A stretch of DNA of 64,000 nt from Nitrosopumilaceae archaeon (GTDB lineage: Archaea; Thermoproteota; Nitrososphaeria; Nitrososphaerales; Nitrosopumilaceae): assembly GCA_965200155.1 (NCBI GenBank), contig CBDATR010000024.1:32001-96000 (forward strand). Reading direction: 5' to 3'. Positions within the stretch are counted from its first letter, which is position 1. Every line of letters begins with the position of its first letter. Both the position numbers and the translations under genes were made by a program. Of the stretch, positions 28,644 to 59,356 are shown piece after piece. The notes beneath the pieces were generated by a model that was given only the letters and a program-made list of their open reading frames with translations, was not told the DNA's origin and ran no database searches.

Positions 28644-28997
28644 TCACTTTTGTGAACTGCCAAGCTTCTCTGATAGTGGTAATTTCTTTCCGTCTCGCTC
28701 CACTCTTATGCTAGTCTGCATCCTGACATATATGCCCATGAGACGCAGCAGATAAAGTAACTGCCCACCGTCCACACTGCGTAGTTCCTTAGATGATACC
28801 ATGGCGGCTATTCTGGGAATAGCCTTGGCTGTCCTGTCGGGAAACTGTCTTTCCGCGTTCTCTAGAACTTCCAATCCTCGGTATCCGAGGGCTGACACCA
28901 GTATGTCCCGGGGGGTTTTGGATTCAGGCTTTGCGGCGCGTTGTTGGAGGGCGGCCAATTTTTTGGCCATTATGCGGTCCAAATCATCGTCGCTCAT
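28644..28997 (-). CDS. PDCD5-like dsDNA-binding protein
   Basis: DDLDRIMAKKLAALQ N-terminus; coupled to the rtcB stop. Confidence 0.7.
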   Translation of the reverse strand: MSDDDLDRIMAKKLAALQQRAAKPESKTPRDILVSALGYRGLEVLENAERQFPDRTAKAIPRIAAMVSSKELRSVDGGQLLYLLRLMGIYVRMQTSIRVERDGKKLPLSEKLGSSQK

Positions 28998-30436
28998 CCC
29001 TTTATCACTCCTATGGGAACCAAGCGAGCGACTTTGGTCGCAATGCCCAAATCGTGGGATACTTCCACTACCGAGTCTACATCCTTGTATGCCTGGGGGG
29101 CCTCCTCCACTACGCCGTCACGGGTCATGGACTTTACAAATATGCCCCTTGCATTGAGAGACTGGCGTATCTCAGTGTCGCTATAGTTGCGGCGAGCCTT
29201 TGAGCGTGACATGGTTCTACCCGCACCATGAGCCGTGGAGCCAAAGCTAAGGCTCATTGAATCGTTGCGCCCTAAAAGAATCCAACTTGCAGTACCCATT
29301 GAGCCGGGTATAAGTACCGGCTGCCCTATGTCGCGATATCGTTCCTGAACCTCTGGTCTATTAGCAGGAAAGGCCCGGGTGGCACCCTTGCGGTGCACTA
29401 CCACTTTGCGATCCTCCCCGTCTATTCTGTGGGTCTCAACTTTTGCAATGTTGTGCGCAACATCGTATACCATATCCATTTCAAGATCCGACTCGGACAT
29501 TTGAAATACACGTTCAAATGACTTGCGTGTCCAGTGCGTTATAATCTGGCGATTACTCCAGGCAAAGTTCAGTGCTGCAAACATAGCCTTGCGGTATGAG
29601 TCGCCCTCCTCCGAGTTGTTGGGCACACATGCCAATTCCCTGTCGGGCAGCTGTATATCGTACTTTTTCAGGGCACGCTCAGATACTCTGAGATAGTCGC
29701 TGCATACCTGATGGCCAAAGCCCCGGGAACCACAATGTATCAGAACGGTTATCATGCCTTCCCGTATCCCCATCCTCTCTGCCGCGTCTGCATCATGTAC
29801 TTGGTCCACTTTTTGTATCTCCAAAAAGTGATTCCCAGATCCCAAACTACCTAGTTGTGGGGCGCCGCGCTTTCGGGCCCGATCAGACACCTTGCCCGGA
29901 TCCGCTCCAAGAATCATTCCATTCTCCTCGCAAACATCGGCATCATTCGTGGAACCGTAACCGTGGGATATGGCCCAGTTCACTCCCTGTACCAGTACCT
30001 CGTCCAATTGGGAGCCGGATAACTTGATCGCCCCCTTGGAACCAACACCAGACGGGATGGATGAAAACAAGTCCATTACCATGTCCCTCAGTCTGGGTCT
30101 TAGTGAGGACTCGTCCAAGTTGCTTTTTAGCAGTCGCACCCCGCAGTTTATGTCATAACCGACACCGCCGGGACTTATCATGCCCTCTTCTGCATCCATG
30201 GCGGCAACACCCCCTACAGGAAAACCGTACCCTTCATGCCCGTCCGGCAGTACGACACCGTGGCTCAGTATGCCGGGTATGGATGCTACATTACAGGCCT
30301 GACGCAGAGTACGGTCTTGGGTCATTTTTGATATGAGTGCGTCATTGGCATATACTCTTACGGGCACCTTCATGTTTAGGGCCGGTTCTGCCTCAATGAG
30401 GTACTGTCCTTTCCCGATCTTTTTTGGAGTGTGCAT
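28994..30436 (-). CDS. rtcB: RNA-splicing ligase RtcB
   Basis: LPDGHEGYGFPVG, GYDINCGVR, GSGNHFLE, HCGSRG, HRKGAT, STAHGAGR, EEAPQAYK motifs. Confidence 0.97.
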   Translation of the reverse strand: MHTPKKIGKGQYLIEAEPALNMKVPVRVYANDALISKMTQDRTLRQACNVASIPGILSHGVVLPDGHEGYGFPVGGVAAMDAEEGMISPGGVGYDINCGVRLLKSNLDESSLRPRLRDMVMDLFSSIPSGVGSKGAIKLSGSQLDEVLVQGVNWAISHGYGSTNDADVCEENGMILGADPGKVSDRARKRGAPQLGSLGSGNHFLEIQKVDQVHDADAAERMGIREGMITVLIHCGSRGFGHQVCSDYLRVSERALKKYDIQLPDRELACVPNNSEEGDSYRKAMFAALNFAWSNRQIITHWTRKSFERVFQMSESDLEMDMVYDVAHNIAKVETHRIDGEDRKVVVHRKGATRAFPANRPEVQERYRDIGQPVLIPGSMGTASWILLGRNDSMSLSFGSTAHGAGRTMSRSKARRNYSDTEIRQSLNARGIFVKSMTRDGVVEEAPQAYKDVDSVVEVSHDLGIATKVARLVPIGVIKG

Positions 30437-30613
30437 AAAGGATTCAATCACATTATTCAATTTAAACAAATAGGGCCGCCCTGCATTCGCATCTTGGCTA
30501 ATCTAGGTAATTCATTGTGTAAATTTGGGAATGGATAAGCTTGTACTATACGCGAATCTAACAAGATTCAGGAATGCATGAGGTTTTTTAATCACTGCCG
30601 GGTTCACTGTACA

Positions 30614-54991: not shown

Positions 54992-57900
54992 CTATATTTC
55001 GTAGGGCCTGATGGAGTCTCGGGTAGTCTTGTTTGTTCTCATCCATTCTAGCGTATTGATGAAAGCGTCCGCCAACTCCACCGTAGTAAGAACGGGTATG
55101 CCCAGTTCCAGTGCCTTCCGGCGAATCTGGTATTCGTCCTCCAGCATACCCACATACTTTTCCAGCGTACTGGTACTGGGTATGTTTATGATAAAGTCTA
55201 CCTCGCCTTTATACAACAGATCCGCGATATTTGGCTGCCGATCAGGCTCAGATATCTTGTGCACCACCTTGATGGCGCCCAGTTTCTCCTCGAAGAATTC
55301 TGCGGTATGCTCTGTGGCCAGTATGTTGAATCCCATGGGTATGAGTTTGGCTATGCTGGGCAGCAACACTTCCTTATTCCGCAGGCCTCCTGCAGTTACA
55401 AGAACCGTACCATTTGTGGGCAGGTTATACCCCACTGCAATCAACCCTTTTGTGAGCGCGTCATAAAAGCTCTCTCCAAAACATGCAGCCTCGCCGGTTG
55501 AATGCATCTCCACACCTAACGTTAGATCCGCGCCCTCCAGCTGCATAAACGAGAATTGTGGTACCTTTATTCCAAAGTTGTCGAGATGCCGCCATTTCTC
55601 CACGGGAATGTCCGAGAGGGCCTCACCCATTATGGCCTTGGATGCCAGCGTTATCAGGTTCATCCGTATCAGTTTCGACACAAAAGGCATGGAGCGTGAT
55701 GCCCTGACGTTCAATTCTATTACGTATGCAAGATCGTCATGTATCAAAAATTGTAGGTTAAATGGTCCCCGTATGTTAAACGTTCTGGCTATCTTGGTGG
55801 AATACTCGGTTATTGTCTGGATGATCCTGTTACTCAGCCTCCATGGCGGTATGCACATCATTGCATCTCCGGAATGCACGCCAGCACTGTCTATGTGCTC
55901 CACTATGGCACCTATGATGACATTATTCCCGTCTGATATGCCATCTACATCCACCTCCAGCGAGTCCATCATGAACTTGGATATCACAACAGGGTGATCT
56001 GGCGATACGTTGGTTGCTTTCTGGGCGTATGTCTTTAGCTCCTCGGCAGACCAGACCACTTTCATTGCCGCTCCTGAGAGTACGTATGAGGGTCGCACTA
56101 GTACTGGAAATCCTACCTCCTGTGCGAACGCGCGCGCCTCTGTTATCTTGGAGAATGCCTGCCAGGATGGTTGCCGAATGTGAAGCTTGTCCATCTCTGC
56201 ACTAAACTTGGAACGATCTTCTGCGCGATCAATATCTGTGGCCGAGGTGCCCAGTATGCGTATGCCCGCGGCGGCCAATCCCGGAGTGAGGTTGTTGGCT
56301 GTCTGCCCGCCCACGCACGTAATTACTCCCTGGGGGTTCTCAAATTCGGCGATATCTCTTATGCGTTCGTGGGTGAGTTCCTCAAAGTACAGCCTGTTGC
56401 ATATGTCATAATCTGTGGATACCGTCTCCGGATTGCAGTTGACCACCACCGCGGGCGTATTGTTCTGTGCGCGTATACCCCAGACCATATTTACCGTGCC
56501 CCAATCAAACTCCACACTACTGCCTATGCGGTATGGACCGGCACCTACCACTATCACTGCACGCTCCTGCGGCTTTGGGATATCGTGGTCTATTCCGCCA
56601 TATGTCATGTATAGATAGTTCGTGGTAGCGGGCCATTCCGCGGCAAGGGAGTCTATCTGCTTGATGTATGGTTGTATGCCCATGCTTTGGCGCAACTGCC
56701 GTACGTATTCCTGATCCTGGGATATGGCACGTCCTATCTGGGAATCGGAGAATCCAGCCTTTTTGGCCTCCTCCATTAGGGAAGTATCCGGAATGCCCTC
56801 TCTCAGGCGGCCTGACACCTCCACTATGTGGCGGAGCTTCTCGACAAACCATGGGTTTATGGACGATAGTTTGGCTATGCGTTTGGTGTCAAATCCGTGC
56901 ATTATGGCGGCGCACACCAAGAATAGTATGCTATCATCAAAGTGGGTCAGCCTGTACTCTAGGTCCTCTTCGGTATACTTTGCCATATTCTGGCGGTTCA
57001 GCACCAGTCCGTCGGCCCCAATATCCAGCATACGTACCGCCTTTTGTACTGACTCCTCGAACGTATGGCCTATGCCCATCACCTCGCCCACCGACTTCAT
57101 GGTGGGTCCAAGCTTTCGCTCTACCAAGTCAAACTTTGCAAAGTCCCACCGGGGATGCTTGCACACTATATAGTCCAGGGATGGCTCAAAACAGGCCGTC
57201 GTCTTCTTGGTTATGGCATTGCTCATCTCGTGCAGACTGTAGCCAAGGCCTATCTTTGCAGACATGTATGCTAGGGGGTACCCTGTAGCCTTGCTTGCCA
57301 GTGCTGATGAGCGTGAAAGCCTGGGGTTGACCTCTATGGCTACATACTTTTCAGAATCAGGATCCAACGCAAACTGTATGTTACACTCTCCCACTATGCC
57401 TATATGATCCGCCGCCCGGAGGCCCGCGGATCTCAGCATGTGGTACTCCCGGTTGTTGAGTGTCTGGGATGGGGCCACGACTATATTGTCTCCTGTATGC
57501 GCCCTCATGGATAACACATTCTCCATGTTACATACAATTACACCGTTTCCTGTGGCGTCACGCATTATTTCGTACTCAATCTGTTTCCAGTCGCCTATGT
57601 ATTCCTCTATCAGTACCTGGCCTACCATGCTGGCCTTTATGCCTCGTTCCACTATTTCGTGCAGCTCCAATTCGTTGTGGGCTACCCCGCCGCCCTTGCC
57701 GCCCAGTGTATATGCCACTCGTATTATAACCGGGTATCCAAGCGCCTCTGCCACGCGTTTTGCGTCATCAAATCCCGTGACTGTCTCGCTGGGGAGCACT
57801 GGTACGCCACACTGTATCATGGCATCTTTGAATCGTTGTCTGTCTTCGGTCATCTGTATGCCGCTTATCTCTGTCCCCAACACTCTTACACCATATTTCT

Positions 57901-58248
57901 CAAGAATGCCATCCTCGTACAGCTTGACACCGCAGTTAAGGGCGGTCTGGCCCCCGTATGAGAGCATTATGGCATCGGGCCTCTCCTGCTCTATCACTGA
58001 TTCAACGTACTGGGGCGTAACAGGTAACAGATACACCTTGTCCACGAACCGGGTATCTGTTTGGATGGTAGCGATGTTTGGGTTTATCAGTATGCTTCGA
58101 ATTCCATCTTCCTGTATGGCCTTGAGACATTGACTACCGGAGTAGTCGAATTGGCGGCCGCTTAAAGGCGACTTTCGCCGGCTTCTCCGATCTTTATTGC
58201 CCCACTGCCTAATACCAGTATGCTATTCAGTGTATCATCTTTGGGCAG
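54992..58248 (-). CDS. carB: Carbamoyl-phosphate synthase large subunit, split: exon 1 58248-58174, exon 2 58150-54992 (1077 aa if joined)
   Basis: Exon 1 (L/M)PKDDTLNSILVLGSGAIKIGEAGE; exon 2 FDYSGSQCLKA...; two ATP-grasp halves and an MGS domain. Confidence 0.93.
58151..58173 (-). other. Candidate 23-nt BHB-type mRNA intron in carB
   Basis: AGUCGCCUUUAAGCGGCCGCCAA; central helix GGCG/CGCC flanked by AAA and AAU; in-frame stop if unspliced. Confidence 0.8.
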
Positions 58249-59356
58249 TGCTTCCCTCCATCATTTTTTGCAGCTCCGCAAAGACAAACTCGCAGTCATA
58301 CGGACCAGGGGATGCTTCGGGATGAAACTGTACCGCTATGCACGGCTTCTCCTTGTGTCGTATACCTTCTACGGTGTTGTCATCGGTGTTTATGAACCAT
58401 AAGTCAAACTCCGAATCGGCCAGCGAATCGGTGTCTATCGCGTAACCATGATTCTGGCTGGTTACGTATACCTGGCCATCGGCCACATTCAGGCAGGACT
58501 TGTTCTGGCCTCGGTGGCCGTACTTTAGCTTGTATGTCTGTGCCCGTCCAGCCAGGCCAATTATCTGGGCGCCTAGACATATTCCCAACGTTGGGATGCC
58601 ATTATGTATCAGATTTTTGGCGGTGTTTATGGTATCCGGGCAATGTTGTGGATCGCCGGGTCCATTACTCAGTATGACACCAACAGGATCATGTGATAGT
58701 ATTTCCTCAATGGGTGTGTTATATGGCACCCTTACTGCCTTGTATCCCATTTTTACAACATTCCGGAGTATTGCATTCTTGATTCCCGCATCTATGACTA
58801 CAATGCTGCGCCCTTTACCATACTCCACTGCCTTGTCCACCGATACCTTCTCTACCAGCCTCTCCATTCCATATCTGGGCGCCTTATCCAGCTGGCTTTT
58901 GAGCTTCTCAACATCAATGGGATCCTCAGATACCGCCAAGGCAGCCATACGTACCCCGCTAATGCGAAGAGACTTTGTCAGTGAACGGGTATCAATACCG
59001 GATATTCCCGGAATCTTTTGGGAGTGCAACCACTGGTCCAGGGTCATTTCAAGACTCCAGTGACTGGCCGTCTCAGATATGCTTTGTACAACCAGCCCCC
59101 GTACCTGTATGCGGTCAGACTCAAAGTATTCAGTAATCCCGCTCTCGCTTACCTGATCAGGATTGGGAATCCCGTAGTTGCCCACCAGCGGATATGTTAT
59201 GGCCAGTATTTGTCCCCCGTATGAGGGATCAGTTAGTGTCTCTGTATAACCAACCATTCCAGTGTTGAATACGGCCTCGCCAAATACTGTCGTTGGATAC
59301 CCAAAACCCTGGCCCTCAAGCACTGTACCGTCATCCAGTATCATGCAACCGTGCAT
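58235..59356 (-). CDS. carA: Carbamoyl-phosphate synthase small subunit
   Basis: FNTGMVGY, LTDPSY, SNGPGDP, GICLG, SQNHG, QFHPEASPGP motifs. Confidence 0.97.
   Translation of the reverse strand: MHGCMILDDGTVLEGQGFGYPTTVFGEAVFNTGMVGYTETLTDPSYGGQILAITYPLVGNYGIPNPDQVSESGITEYFESDRIQVRGLVVQSISETASHWSLEMTLDQWLHSQKIPGISGIDTRSLTKSLRISGVRMAALAVSEDPIDVEKLKSQLDKAPRYGMERLVEKVSVDKAVEYGKGRSIVVIDAGIKNAILRNVVKMGYKAVRVPYNTPIEEILSHDPVGVILSNGPGDPQHCPDTINTAKNLIHNGIPTLGICLGAQIIGLAGRAQTYKLKYGHRGQNKSCLNVADGQVYVTSQNHGYAIDTDSLADSEFDLWFINTDDNTVEGIRHKEKPCIAVQFHPEASPGPYDCEFVFAELQKMMEGSTAQR

What the first reader, a model, noticed from the sequence alone, without database searches (positions are those of the whole stretch)
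58130..58200. Candidate tRNA-type (BHB) intron in the mRNA of carB
Seen: on the minus strand the conserved CarB motif IGEAGE|FDYSG is split by 23 nt, AGUCGCCUUUAAGCGGCCGCCAA (58173-58151). The insert adds an in-frame UAA and a frameshift to an otherwise intact 1077-codon gene next to intact carA. The RNA can fold as a 4-bp central helix GGCG/CGCC, a 3-nt AAA bulge and an inner stem GUCGC/GCGGC closed by CUUUAA. On the 3' side lies unpaired AAU, and an outer exon-exon helix AUCGGAG/CUCCGGU is possible. Established: the archaeal splicing endonuclease EndA cuts after the second nucleotide of each bulge. Applying that rule (GGCG-AA|A and CGCC-AA|U) yields GGC GAA UUC GAC = G-E-F-D, an exact repair. 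Archaeal mRNA introns are known from very few genes (cbf5 is the classic case). Inference: pyrimidine/arginine biosynthesis here depends on EndA/RtcB splicing, possibly a regulatory switch in an ammonia oxidiser. The outer side is a relaxed bulge-helix-loop rather than a strict BHB. I cannot verify whether this has been reported.
Basis: partly seen in the sequence, partly recalled or inferred. Interest (0 to 1): 0.93.

Follow-up and report, generated by a model that had tools for sequence, protein, structure and literature searches.

The report
Spliced tRNA-type intron inside carB mRNA
A 23-base structured insert that breaks the essential carB gene of an ammonia-oxidising archaeon is cut out of the messenger RNA, making it only the second coding-region intron of this type found in archaea, and it is shared by most of this globally abundant group.

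Summary
On the minus strand, 58173-58151 is a 23-nt insert between codons 25 and 26 of the genome's only carB. It adds an in-frame TAA and a frameshift.

It is a real intron.
- RNA evidence: contigs from 3 of 3 metatranscriptome runs laid lack exactly these 23 bases, with no other difference over 901 nt. A likely DNA run keeps them.
- Conservation: same-site inserts of 17-52 nt occur in 58 of 151 sampled genomes of the order.
- Every one blocks translation: 76 of 76 distinct versions shift the frame or carry a stop.
- Structure: the fold is bulge-helix-bulge-like. Four of five inner-stem pairs show compensatory changes. One central-helix pair covaries between an exon synonymous site and the intron.
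- Machinery: the genome has two EndA-type subunits and RtcB.
- Evolution: intronless Nitrosopumilus-type genes are nested among intron-bearing ones, which points to precise losses.

Ten literature searches found no report. A 2020 paper names cbf5 as the only earlier mRNA case, besides the Haloferax 5'-UTR case it reports.

The enzyme identity is inferred. A regulatory role is unsupported.

The parts
58174..58248 (-). carB exon 1: 25 codons from a CTG at 58248-58246 to the GAA at 58176-58174
   Evidence: The frame is open from 58260. It holds no ATG, GTG or TTG. CTG stands at the position where relatives have ATG or TTG, with GGAGG upstream.
58151..58173 (-). 23-nt intron. The cut positions can be slid by up to 2 nt without changing the product, because of the flanking A runs.
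   Evidence: exactly 23 letters are left out at 58151 in the RNA contigs of X1, X2 and X3, and are present in X5; in-frame TAA and a frameshift.
54992..58150 (-). carB exon 2: 1052 codons plus stop
   Evidence: translation P0001. (TIGR01369, 1345.5 bits, profile positions 25-1051).
58176..58179 (-). Central helix, 5' strand (GGCG). It lies in exon 1: the Gly codon plus the first base of the Glu codon.
   Evidence: It pairs with 58153-58156. In three relatives the exon C>U change is matched by an intron G>A change.
58173..58175 (-). 5' three-nucleotide bulge (AAA) holding the 5' splice site
   Evidence: AAA in 57, AGA in 16, AAU in 2 and AGU in 1 of 76 distinct sequences.
58157..58172 (-). Inner hairpin of the intron: 5-bp stem (GUCGC/GCGGC) and 6-nt loop
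   Evidence: 4 of 5 pairs show changes on both sides.
58153..58156 (-). Central helix, 3' strand (CGCC), within the intron
58150..58152 (-). 3' bulge or loop (AAU) holding the 3' splice site. It is not closed by an adjacent helix.
   Evidence: AAU 46, AGU 21, AUU 9 of 76. for the two possible outer pairings.
58185..58190 (-). Possible outer exon-exon helix, 5' strand (UCGGAG)
   Evidence: 100% of cells paired, with only one-sided changes; the Gly codon here is GGA in 73 of 76 intron-bearing genes, against 1 of 12 intronless genes of the same order.
58137..58142 (-). Possible outer exon-exon helix, 3' strand (CUCCGG)
   Evidence: Ser codon TCC or TCT in 74 of 76; Tyr TAC in 73 of 76.
58235..59356 (-). 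carA (small subunit), intact. It overlaps the start of carB by 14 nt.
   Evidence: TIGR01368, 428.3 bits.
28994..30469 (-). rtcB (RNA 3'-phosphate ligase), the expected exon-joining enzyme. It lies in the same window.
   Evidence: PF01139, 582.2 bits, at C24:60997-62301. (491-aa ORF).

Best explanation
The 23 nt at 58173-58151 are a tRNA-type (bulge-helix-bulge-like) intron in the carB pre-mRNA.

Proposed mechanism:
- The transcript folds so that four exon bases (GGCG) pair with the last four structured intron bases (CGCC).
- A 3-nt bulge and a small intron hairpin lie on one side of this helix. An unpaired A-A-U lies on the other.
- The two-subunit splicing endonuclease (EndA) cuts after the second nucleotide following the central helix on each strand.
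- RtcB joins the exons. This restores the G-E | F-D junction and a 1077-codon reading frame.

Shown: the insert is in the DNA, it is absent from RNA-derived contigs, the structure is conserved with covariation, and the enzymes are encoded.

Inferred: EndA and RtcB are the enzymes that act, the exact cut positions, and that splicing is constitutive.

The intron is old. It is shared by the Nitrosopumilaceae-like and Nitrososphaeraceae-like families and has been lost precisely several times.
For: (1) RNA.
- Of 4 RNA runs found, 3 were laid. Each gave one contig of 3.4-4.4 kb, with 23 letters left out at 58151 and 0 other differences over 901 nt.
- The near-identical DNA-like run X5 has no gap.

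(2) Same site in relatives.
- 23 of 30 carB loci from 40 relatives have the insert.
- 22 of 30 named Nitrososphaerota loci have it. None of 49 assessable loci from other archaea and bacteria has it.
- All 10 genomes of the window's genus have it.
- The covariance model R1 gave intron-sized hits in 58 of 151 genomes of the order. In the class sample it gave such a hit in 1 of 64 genomes outside the order.

(3) Removal is obligatory.
- 76 of 76 distinct inserts (17-52 nt) have a frameshifting length (44), an in-frame stop (63), or both.

(4) Structure.
- On 31 MAFFT-aligned sequences, 95.9% of cells are paired, against 25.6-51.6% when the partner is slid. There are 24 double-change cells, reached by 0 of 500 shuffles.
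- On 76 model-aligned sequences there are 117 double-change cells and 4 of 5 inner pairs covary. Central pair C-G becomes U-A in 3 sequences through a synonymous exon change.

(5) Exon synonymous sites are frozen only where the intron is present. All 39 distinct sequences found by protein search, not by the model, keep GGA and GGC at the two Gly codons.

(6) Machinery.
- Two PF02778+PF01974 proteins of 185 and 195 aa.
- One RtcB.
- Three intron-containing tRNAs found by ARAGORN.

(7) There is a single carB.
Against: - All RNA runs come from one study, and they are assembled contigs, not reads. They show that the spliced form exists. They do not show its share, its ends or its strand.
- The RNA sample's own DNA was not examined. 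An intronless allele in that population is therefore not formally excluded.
- The strict hBHBh' motif is not met on the 3' side.
- In 17 of 76 sequences the outermost central pair is a G·A mismatch.
- Outer-helix support rests on invariance and wobble changes only, within codon constraints.
- Alignment A3 was fitted to the model's structure and half of its rows were retrieved with that model, which favours the structure and the flanks.
- The related genomes are not independent.
- No enzymology was possible. EndA and RtcB are assigned from the known pathway only.
Confidence: 0.88

Rival explanations
1. The 23 nt are removed from the RNA, but not by EndA and RtcB. Another endonuclease and ligase, or a small self-cleaving element, would do it.
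For: The enzyme identity was not tested. The 3' side departs from the strict motif.
Against: - The conserved core is exactly what EndA recognises: a 4-bp helix, a 3-nt bulge, and cuts at symmetric positions.
- The intron is 17-52 nt long with a variable loop, too small for group I or II introns.
- No Rfam family matches 57900-58400 at E up to 1.
- The two-subunit EndA type is the one reported to accept relaxed motifs (abstract of PMC5829648 in the listing).
Confidence: 0.05
2. The RNA-run contigs come from an intronless DNA allele or strain, either as contaminating DNA or as its transcripts. The window's own copy would then not be spliced.
For: - Intronless carB genes exist in related genera, and some genera are mixed.
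- The RNA and DNA runs come from different studies.
- The tool warns that DNA can be present in RNA libraries.
Against: - All three RNA contigs match the window with 0 other differences over 901 nt.
- All 10 genomes of the genus carry the insert.
- If collinear, the RNA contigs would end 22-57 nt upstream of the carA start, and one would end at the carB stop. This is my arithmetic on table 8, and the tool says contigs cannot prove ends. The DNA-like contig is longer.
- This rival would leave 76 of 76 disrupted genes with covarying stems unexplained.
Confidence: 0.04
3. carB is a pseudogene, or the insert is an assembly or sequencing artefact.
For: Read literally, the gene has a stop and a frameshift after codon 25. 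The genome is an 87.6%-complete MAG.
Against: - Exon 2 is open for 1052 codons with a full-length profile match.
- The insert is present in the independent DNA-like run at depth 82.
- It is present in 58 of 151 genomes at the same site.
- No second carB was found.
Confidence: 0.01
4. The ribosome bypasses or recodes the insert (translational hopping) and no RNA splicing is needed.
For: A short hairpin with an in-frame stop resembles known bypass cassettes (recalled, not tested).
Against: - The RNA itself lacks the 23 nt.
- Insert lengths vary from 17 to 52 nt, with no matching take-off and landing codons.
Confidence: 0.01

Closest known systems
cbf5 pre-mRNA intron of Crenarchaeota (Watanabe 2002; Yokobori 2009, PMC2738675: abstract in the listing, passages)
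   Same: - A short intron inside a protein-coding sequence.
- A BHB motif, often relaxed.
- A lineage with a two-subunit EndA.
- Patchy distribution explained by gain and precise loss.
   Different: - A different gene: a biosynthetic enzyme rather than an RNA-modification enzyme.
- A different lineage: mesophilic ammonia oxidisers. That paper scored Cenarchaeum and Nitrosopumilus as having no cbf5 intron, and cbf5 is uninterrupted in this genome.
- The carB intron sits 25 codons into the gene and is 17-52 nt long.
BHB intron in the 5' UTR of Haloferax volcanii HVO_1309 mRNA (Schwarz 2020, PMC7714728: passages read)
   Same: An EndA substrate in an mRNA. That paper says that, besides its own case, only cbf5 had been reported.
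   Different: That intron lies in an untranslated leader, so the reading frame does not depend on it. Here the protein cannot be made without splicing.
Archaeal tRNA introns (canonical and non-canonical positions)
   Same: The same core geometry and, by inference, the same enzymes. This genome has at least 3 intron-containing tRNAs.
   Different: The host is an mRNA. The exon half of the central helix is constrained by codons, so covariation runs through synonymous sites.
HAC1/XBP1 unconventional mRNA splicing in eukaryotes (recalled; mentioned in passages of PMC13149111)
   Same: A protein endonuclease cuts two small stem-loops in an mRNA and a ligase rejoins it, changing the reading frame. 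In animals the ligase is RtcB (abstract of PMC8718801 in the listing).
   Different: The endonuclease there is IRE1 and the event is a regulated stress switch. No regulation is shown here.

Membership tests
Archaeal BHB (tRNA-type) intron | Four-base-pair central helix between the two splice sites | tested here: met
- Pairs 2-4 are standard pairs in 76 of 76 distinct sequences.
- The outermost pair is G-C or G-U in 59 of 76 and G·A in 17.
- There is one compensatory C-G to U-A change, seen in 3 sequences.
Archaeal BHB (tRNA-type) intron | Three-nucleotide bulge with the 5' splice site, followed by an intron helix | tested here: met
   a 3-nt A-R-A or A-R-U bulge in 76 of 76; the inner helix is 95.5% paired and 4 of 5 pairs covary.
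Archaeal BHB (tRNA-type) intron | Second three-nucleotide bulge closed by an adjacent outer helix (strict hBHBh') | tested here: not met
   Unpaired A-N-U follows the central helix, but the nearest conserved exon-exon helix is 5 and 8 nt away. The alternative GAA/UUC pairing leaves a 2-nt bulge. This is a relaxed form, as is described for cbf5 (abstract recalled).
Archaeal BHB (tRNA-type) intron | Excision at symmetric positions in the two bulges, followed by exon ligation | tested here: met
   exactly 23 nt are missing from the RNA contigs. This fits cuts after the second nucleotide past the helix on both strands. The exact bonds are ambiguous by up to 2 nt.
Archaeal BHB (tRNA-type) intron | Splicing endonuclease and RtcB ligase encoded | tested here: met
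   two EndA paralogues, each with PF02778 and PF01974. RtcB. That one paralogue is catalytic and the other structural is my reading of the sequences by eye.
Archaeal BHB (tRNA-type) intron | Cleavage by EndA shown biochemically; circular intron product | not testable with these tools
   This needs in vitro cleavage and small or circular RNA sequencing.
Group I / group II self-splicing intron | Catalytic RNA core of hundreds of nucleotides | tested here: not met
   Inserts are 17-52 nt. No Rfam match.
Pseudogene | Loss of constraint on the coding sequence, with disruptions at varied positions | tested here: not met
   The single disruption is always at the same codon boundary. Exon 2 is intact. 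The structure is conserved.

The most novel reading that the evidence does not exclude
There are two bolder readings.

(a) The intron is kept because it does work. Splicing of carB by the tRNA-splicing machinery would tie carbamoyl-phosphate supply (arginine and pyrimidines) to the cell's RNA-processing capacity. This would be an archaeal counterpart of HAC1/XBP1-type control. The weak CTG start codon found in the same genes would reinforce it.

(b) The 5' end of carB is a recurrent landing site for BHB introns. This is hinted at by an unrelated 22-nt BHB-like insert 8 codons upstream in one Aenigmatarchaeota genome. It would imply an active insertion mechanism, such as reverse splicing followed by reverse transcription.
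Probability: 0.12. Interest if true: 0.92.

Novelty: new member of a known kind. Interest (0 to 1): 0.8.

Why it matters
- **Few precedents.** Introns of this type inside archaeal protein-coding sequences were known from one gene, cbf5, in thermophilic Crenarchaeota. A 2020 study states this (PMC7714728, passage seen).
- **What is new here.** A second case lies in a central biosynthetic gene, with direct RNA evidence. It is spread through ammonia-oxidising archaea, which are among the most abundant microbes in oceans and soils (recalled).
- **Dependence on splicing.** In these organisms arginine and pyrimidine synthesis depends on the tRNA-splicing enzymes.
- **A natural series for study.** The 76 or more variants, together with intronless sister lineages, allow study of EndA specificity and of intron gain and loss.
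- **Annotation.** By inference, gene callers will truncate carB or flag it as a pseudogene in these genomes, which can mislead metabolic reconstructions.
- **A search recipe.** A conserved same-site insert with a covarying stem and frozen synonymous sites can be used to look for more such introns.

Tried and rejected
- **Other copies of the element.** Model R1 at E up to 10 found only the carB site in the window's genome.
- **Genome-wide scan for other BHB-like inserts whose removal repairs a reading frame.**
  - The first script timed out.
  - The vectorised version gave 440,136 structural hits and 9,144 candidates, with 49 under stricter limits.
  - carB was recovered as the positive control.
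  - The rest looked like gene-boundary or off-frame artefacts by eye, for example an Sm-like gene next to metK.
  - The scan is crude and does not show that other mRNA introns are absent.
- **Rfam.** No match.
- **Outer helix.** Two alternative pairings both fit 100% and cannot be separated.
- **RNA contigs.** No unspliced contig appeared in the RNA runs. Contigs drop rare variants, so this says nothing about splicing efficiency. No silent control stretch could be laid, because the cap is one call.
- **Aenigmatarchaeota insert.** It was not found in the 4 other carB-bearing genomes among 41 sampled from that order, so it has no comparative support.
- **Literature.**
  - All 10 searches found no paper linking carB or carbamoyl-phosphate synthase with a BHB intron.
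  - PMC1643844 is not held.
  - Subscription papers and supplementary files were not seen and could hold a mention.
  - Passages read in PMC12397907, PMC13149111, PMC3082918, PMC4839502, PMC7819960 and PMC4295551 do not mention such an intron.
- **Tree.** The tree is a quick tree on 248 columns. 25 of its 67 inner branches are unsupported, and its outgroup is not one side of a branch. It supports 'several changes' (at least 3) and no more. I labelled L051 as intron-bearing although exon 1 is cut off there.
- **Rows dropped before counts.**
  - Duplicates L006, L008, L012, L043 and L049, and the partial L051, from the 39-sequence set.
  - L111 was not assessable.
  - L028, L059 and L063 lack the regex motif but are intronless by eye. 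They were left out of the codon table.

Full report
**What is in the sequence**

On the minus strand, carA (59356-58235) is followed by carB. The carB frame is open from 58260. It reads through the conserved N-terminal Gly-rich motif to the G-E-A-G-E codons ending at 58174. It is then interrupted by 23 nt (58173-58151) before the F-D-Y-S-G codons at 58150. Read through, the insert gives TAA at 58164-58162 and shifts the frame.

Downstream, 1052 codons are open to the stop at 54992. They match the CarB equivalog TIGR01369 from profile position 25 to the end. The whole genome (87.6% complete, 51 contigs) has no second carB. The next best match is a 26%-identical ATP-grasp protein. The genome encodes archaeal AmoA, so the organism is an ammonia oxidiser. 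Named relatives place it among the Nitrosopumilaceae.

**The fold**

The minimum-energy and centroid folds of 58200-58125 give the following elements:
- a 4-bp helix between exon bases GGCG (58179-58176) and intron bases CGCC (58156-58153);
- a 3-nt AAA bulge;
- a 5-bp intron hairpin with a 6-nt loop.

On its own this fold is unremarkable (z -1.84; 11 of 200 shuffles fold as well).

**RNA evidence**

Eight public runs hold the stretch. Four are metatranscriptomes from one study (X1-X4). Four are of unrecorded type from another study (X5-X8), with 100% of the words in three of them. I laid X1, X2, X3 and X5 on 57700-58600.
- Each RNA run gave one contig (3936, 3399 and 4361 nt; depths 15.8, 21.3 and 23.8). 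Each lacks exactly 23 letters at 58151 and shows no other difference over 901 nt.
- The X5 contig (depth 82.4) is near-identical and may be the window's source. It has no gap.
- These are assembled contigs from a single study. They show that an exactly spliced form exists and dominates the assembly. They do not show the ratio of forms or the transcript ends.
- By my arithmetic on table 8, and if collinear, the RNA contigs would end 22-57 nt upstream of the carA start, and one would end at the carB stop. This is a weak hint of operon-length transcripts, which the tool warns contigs cannot prove.

**Comparative evidence**

A protein search with exon 2 found carB in 40 of 41 genomes.
- Of the 30 loci fetched, 23 carry an insert at the same codon boundary and 7 do not.
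- All 10 genomes of the window's genus carry it.

A scan of named genomes gave 80 loci.
- 22 of 30 loci named Nitrososphaerota carry the insert. These include Nitrosotenuis, Nitrosarchaeum, Cenarchaeum, some Nitrosopelagicus, Nitrososphaeraceae, Nitrosocosmicus and TH1177.
- None of 49 assessable loci from other archaea and bacteria carries it.

A covariance model (R1) separates two kinds of hit. Intron-sized hits span 59-90 nt and score at least 57 bits. Hits of 42 nt scoring 26-39 bits are intronless exon flanks.
- Order sample: 58 of 151 genomes have the intron. By family this is 16 of 24 in the window's family (including the window), 9 of 9 in f4, 20 of 23 in f15, 7 of 24 in f10, 2 of 4 in f13, and 1 of 1 in each of f2, f3, f8 and f11.
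- Class sample: 55 of 151 genomes have it, or 54 without the unpublished G268. Only 1 of 64 genomes outside the order has it (G203).
- One genus is mixed. Of its 33 genomes, 9 have the intron, 10 have only intronless flank hits, and 14 gave no hit.

On a quick CarB tree the state needs at least 4 changes, of which 3 are forced by well-supported branches. The Nitrosopumilus-type intronless genes are nested inside intron-bearing ones. Intronless genes show a clean G-E | F-D junction, so the losses were precise.

**The insert must be removed everywhere**

Among 76 distinct sequences the inserts are 17-52 nt long. 44 have a length that shifts the frame, 63 have an in-frame stop, and 76 of 76 have at least one of the two.

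**Structure is under selection**

On the MAFFT alignment of 31 short-intron sequences:
- 95.9% of cells form pairs, against 25.6-51.6% when the 3' partner is slid;
- 24 cells have changes on both sides, reached by 0 of 500 shuffles;
- 4 of 5 inner-stem pairs covary.

On 76 distinct model-aligned sequences:
- 96.5% of cells are paired;
- 117 cells have changes on both sides, reached by 0 of 500 shuffles;
- the central pair C-G becomes U-A in three sequences, through a synonymous GGC to GGU change in the exon matched by G to A in the intron.

That alignment is fitted to the model and many of its rows were retrieved with the model, so it leans towards the structure. The MAFFT result does not have that bias.

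Exon synonymous sites are fixed only in intron-bearing genes:

| Codon | Intron-bearing (of 76) | Intronless, same order (of 12) | Other archaea (of 25) |
|---|---|---|---|
| Gly at -5 is GGA | 73 | 1 | 3 |
| Gly at -2 is GGC | 72 (the other 4 are GGU) | 1 | 2 |
| Ser at +4 is UCC or UCU | 74 | 9 | 9 |
| Tyr at +3 is UAC | 73 | 4 | 19 |

All 39 distinct sequences found by protein search alone keep GGA and GGC at the two Gly codons.

The 3' side is relaxed. A-N-U follows the central helix with no adjacent helix. Two exon-exon pairings (UCGGAG/CUCCGG, or GAA/UUC) are both fully compatible and cannot be told apart.

**Machinery**

- The genome has two splicing-endonuclease paralogues of 185 and 195 aa. 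Each carries the N-terminal and catalytic-type Pfam domains. This is the make-up of the two-subunit enzyme, which is reported to accept relaxed motifs (abstract of PMC5829648 seen).
- There is one RtcB, inside this window at 28994-30469.
- ARAGORN finds 3 intron-containing tRNAs among the 29 tRNAs it detects.
- cbf5, the classical intron host, is uninterrupted here.

**Mechanism and rivals**

The best reading is EndA cleavage after the second nucleotide beyond the central helix on each strand, followed by RtcB ligation. This gives a phase-0 junction and a 1077-codon CarB.

Removal at the RNA level is observed. The enzymes and the exact bonds are inferred.

The rivals are another nuclease, an intronless allele in the RNA sample, a pseudogene or artefact, and ribosomal bypass. 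Each is contradicted by at least one direct result and together they get about 0.1.

Nothing supports a regulatory switch. The loop is short and variable, and no known RNA family matches.

**Comparison and novelty**

The closest known case is the cbf5 intron of Crenarchaeota. It shares the relaxed BHB motif, the two-subunit EndA and the gain-and-loss pattern. The Haloferax HVO_1309 intron lies in a 5' UTR. A 2020 paper states that, besides its own case, only cbf5 had been reported (passage).

Ten full-text searches found no paper joining carB or carbamoyl-phosphate synthase with a BHB intron. I recall none either. Subscription journals and supplements were not visible.

I therefore rate this a new member of a known kind: a second coding-sequence host gene, in a different and ecologically dominant lineage, with RNA and covariation support.

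Noticed in passing
window 58246-58248 (minus strand); loci L003-L062: carB appears to start at CTG.
- No ATG, GTG or TTG is in frame between the upstream stop and the conserved N-terminus.
- CTG sits exactly where relatives have ATG or TTG, 6-9 nt after a GGAGG-like motif.
- The same holds in 24 of 53 distinct loci. All 24 are intron-bearing and Nitrosopumilaceae-like, and 20 of the 24 have no alternative in-frame start.
- Two Nitrososphaeraceae-like loci (L050, L053) have ATT there.
   Followed up: partly
L080:547-568 (= L156, genome G284, an Aenigmatarchaeota MAG): This is a different 22-nt insert in carB, 8 codons upstream of the site studied here, between the G-S-G-A and I-K-I-G codons.
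- It folds into the same architecture: a 4-bp exon-intron helix, an AAA bulge and a 5-bp hairpin.
- The same cutting rule would restore the consensus residues.
- It was not found in the 4 other carB-bearing genomes among 41 sampled from its order.
- There is no RNA evidence for it.
   Followed up: partly
L116 (G203:C32:4839-4903): One genome from a different order of the class carries a same-site 23-nt, GC-rich intron (69.9 bits). The other 63 genomes sampled outside the order gave no intron-sized hit. This could be ancestry or transfer of carB.
   Followed up: no
genera g14, g4 and g36: Presence and absence of the intron vary within single genera.
- g14: 9 genomes with the intron, 10 with only intronless flank hits, and 14 with no hit, out of 33.
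- This suggests recent, repeated precise loss, or replacement by recombination.
   Followed up: partly
window 58235-58248: The end of carA and the proposed CTG start of carB overlap by 14 nt, so the two may be translationally coupled.
   Followed up: no
window 28994-30469 (minus strand): The RNA ligase gene rtcB lies about 28 kb from the intron, on the same strand and in the same window.
   Followed up: no
window 58153-58160: The junction of the inner stem and the central helix makes a GCGGCCGC palindrome (a NotI site). It follows from the two helices and is not seen in most relatives. I see no sign of engineering.
   Followed up: no
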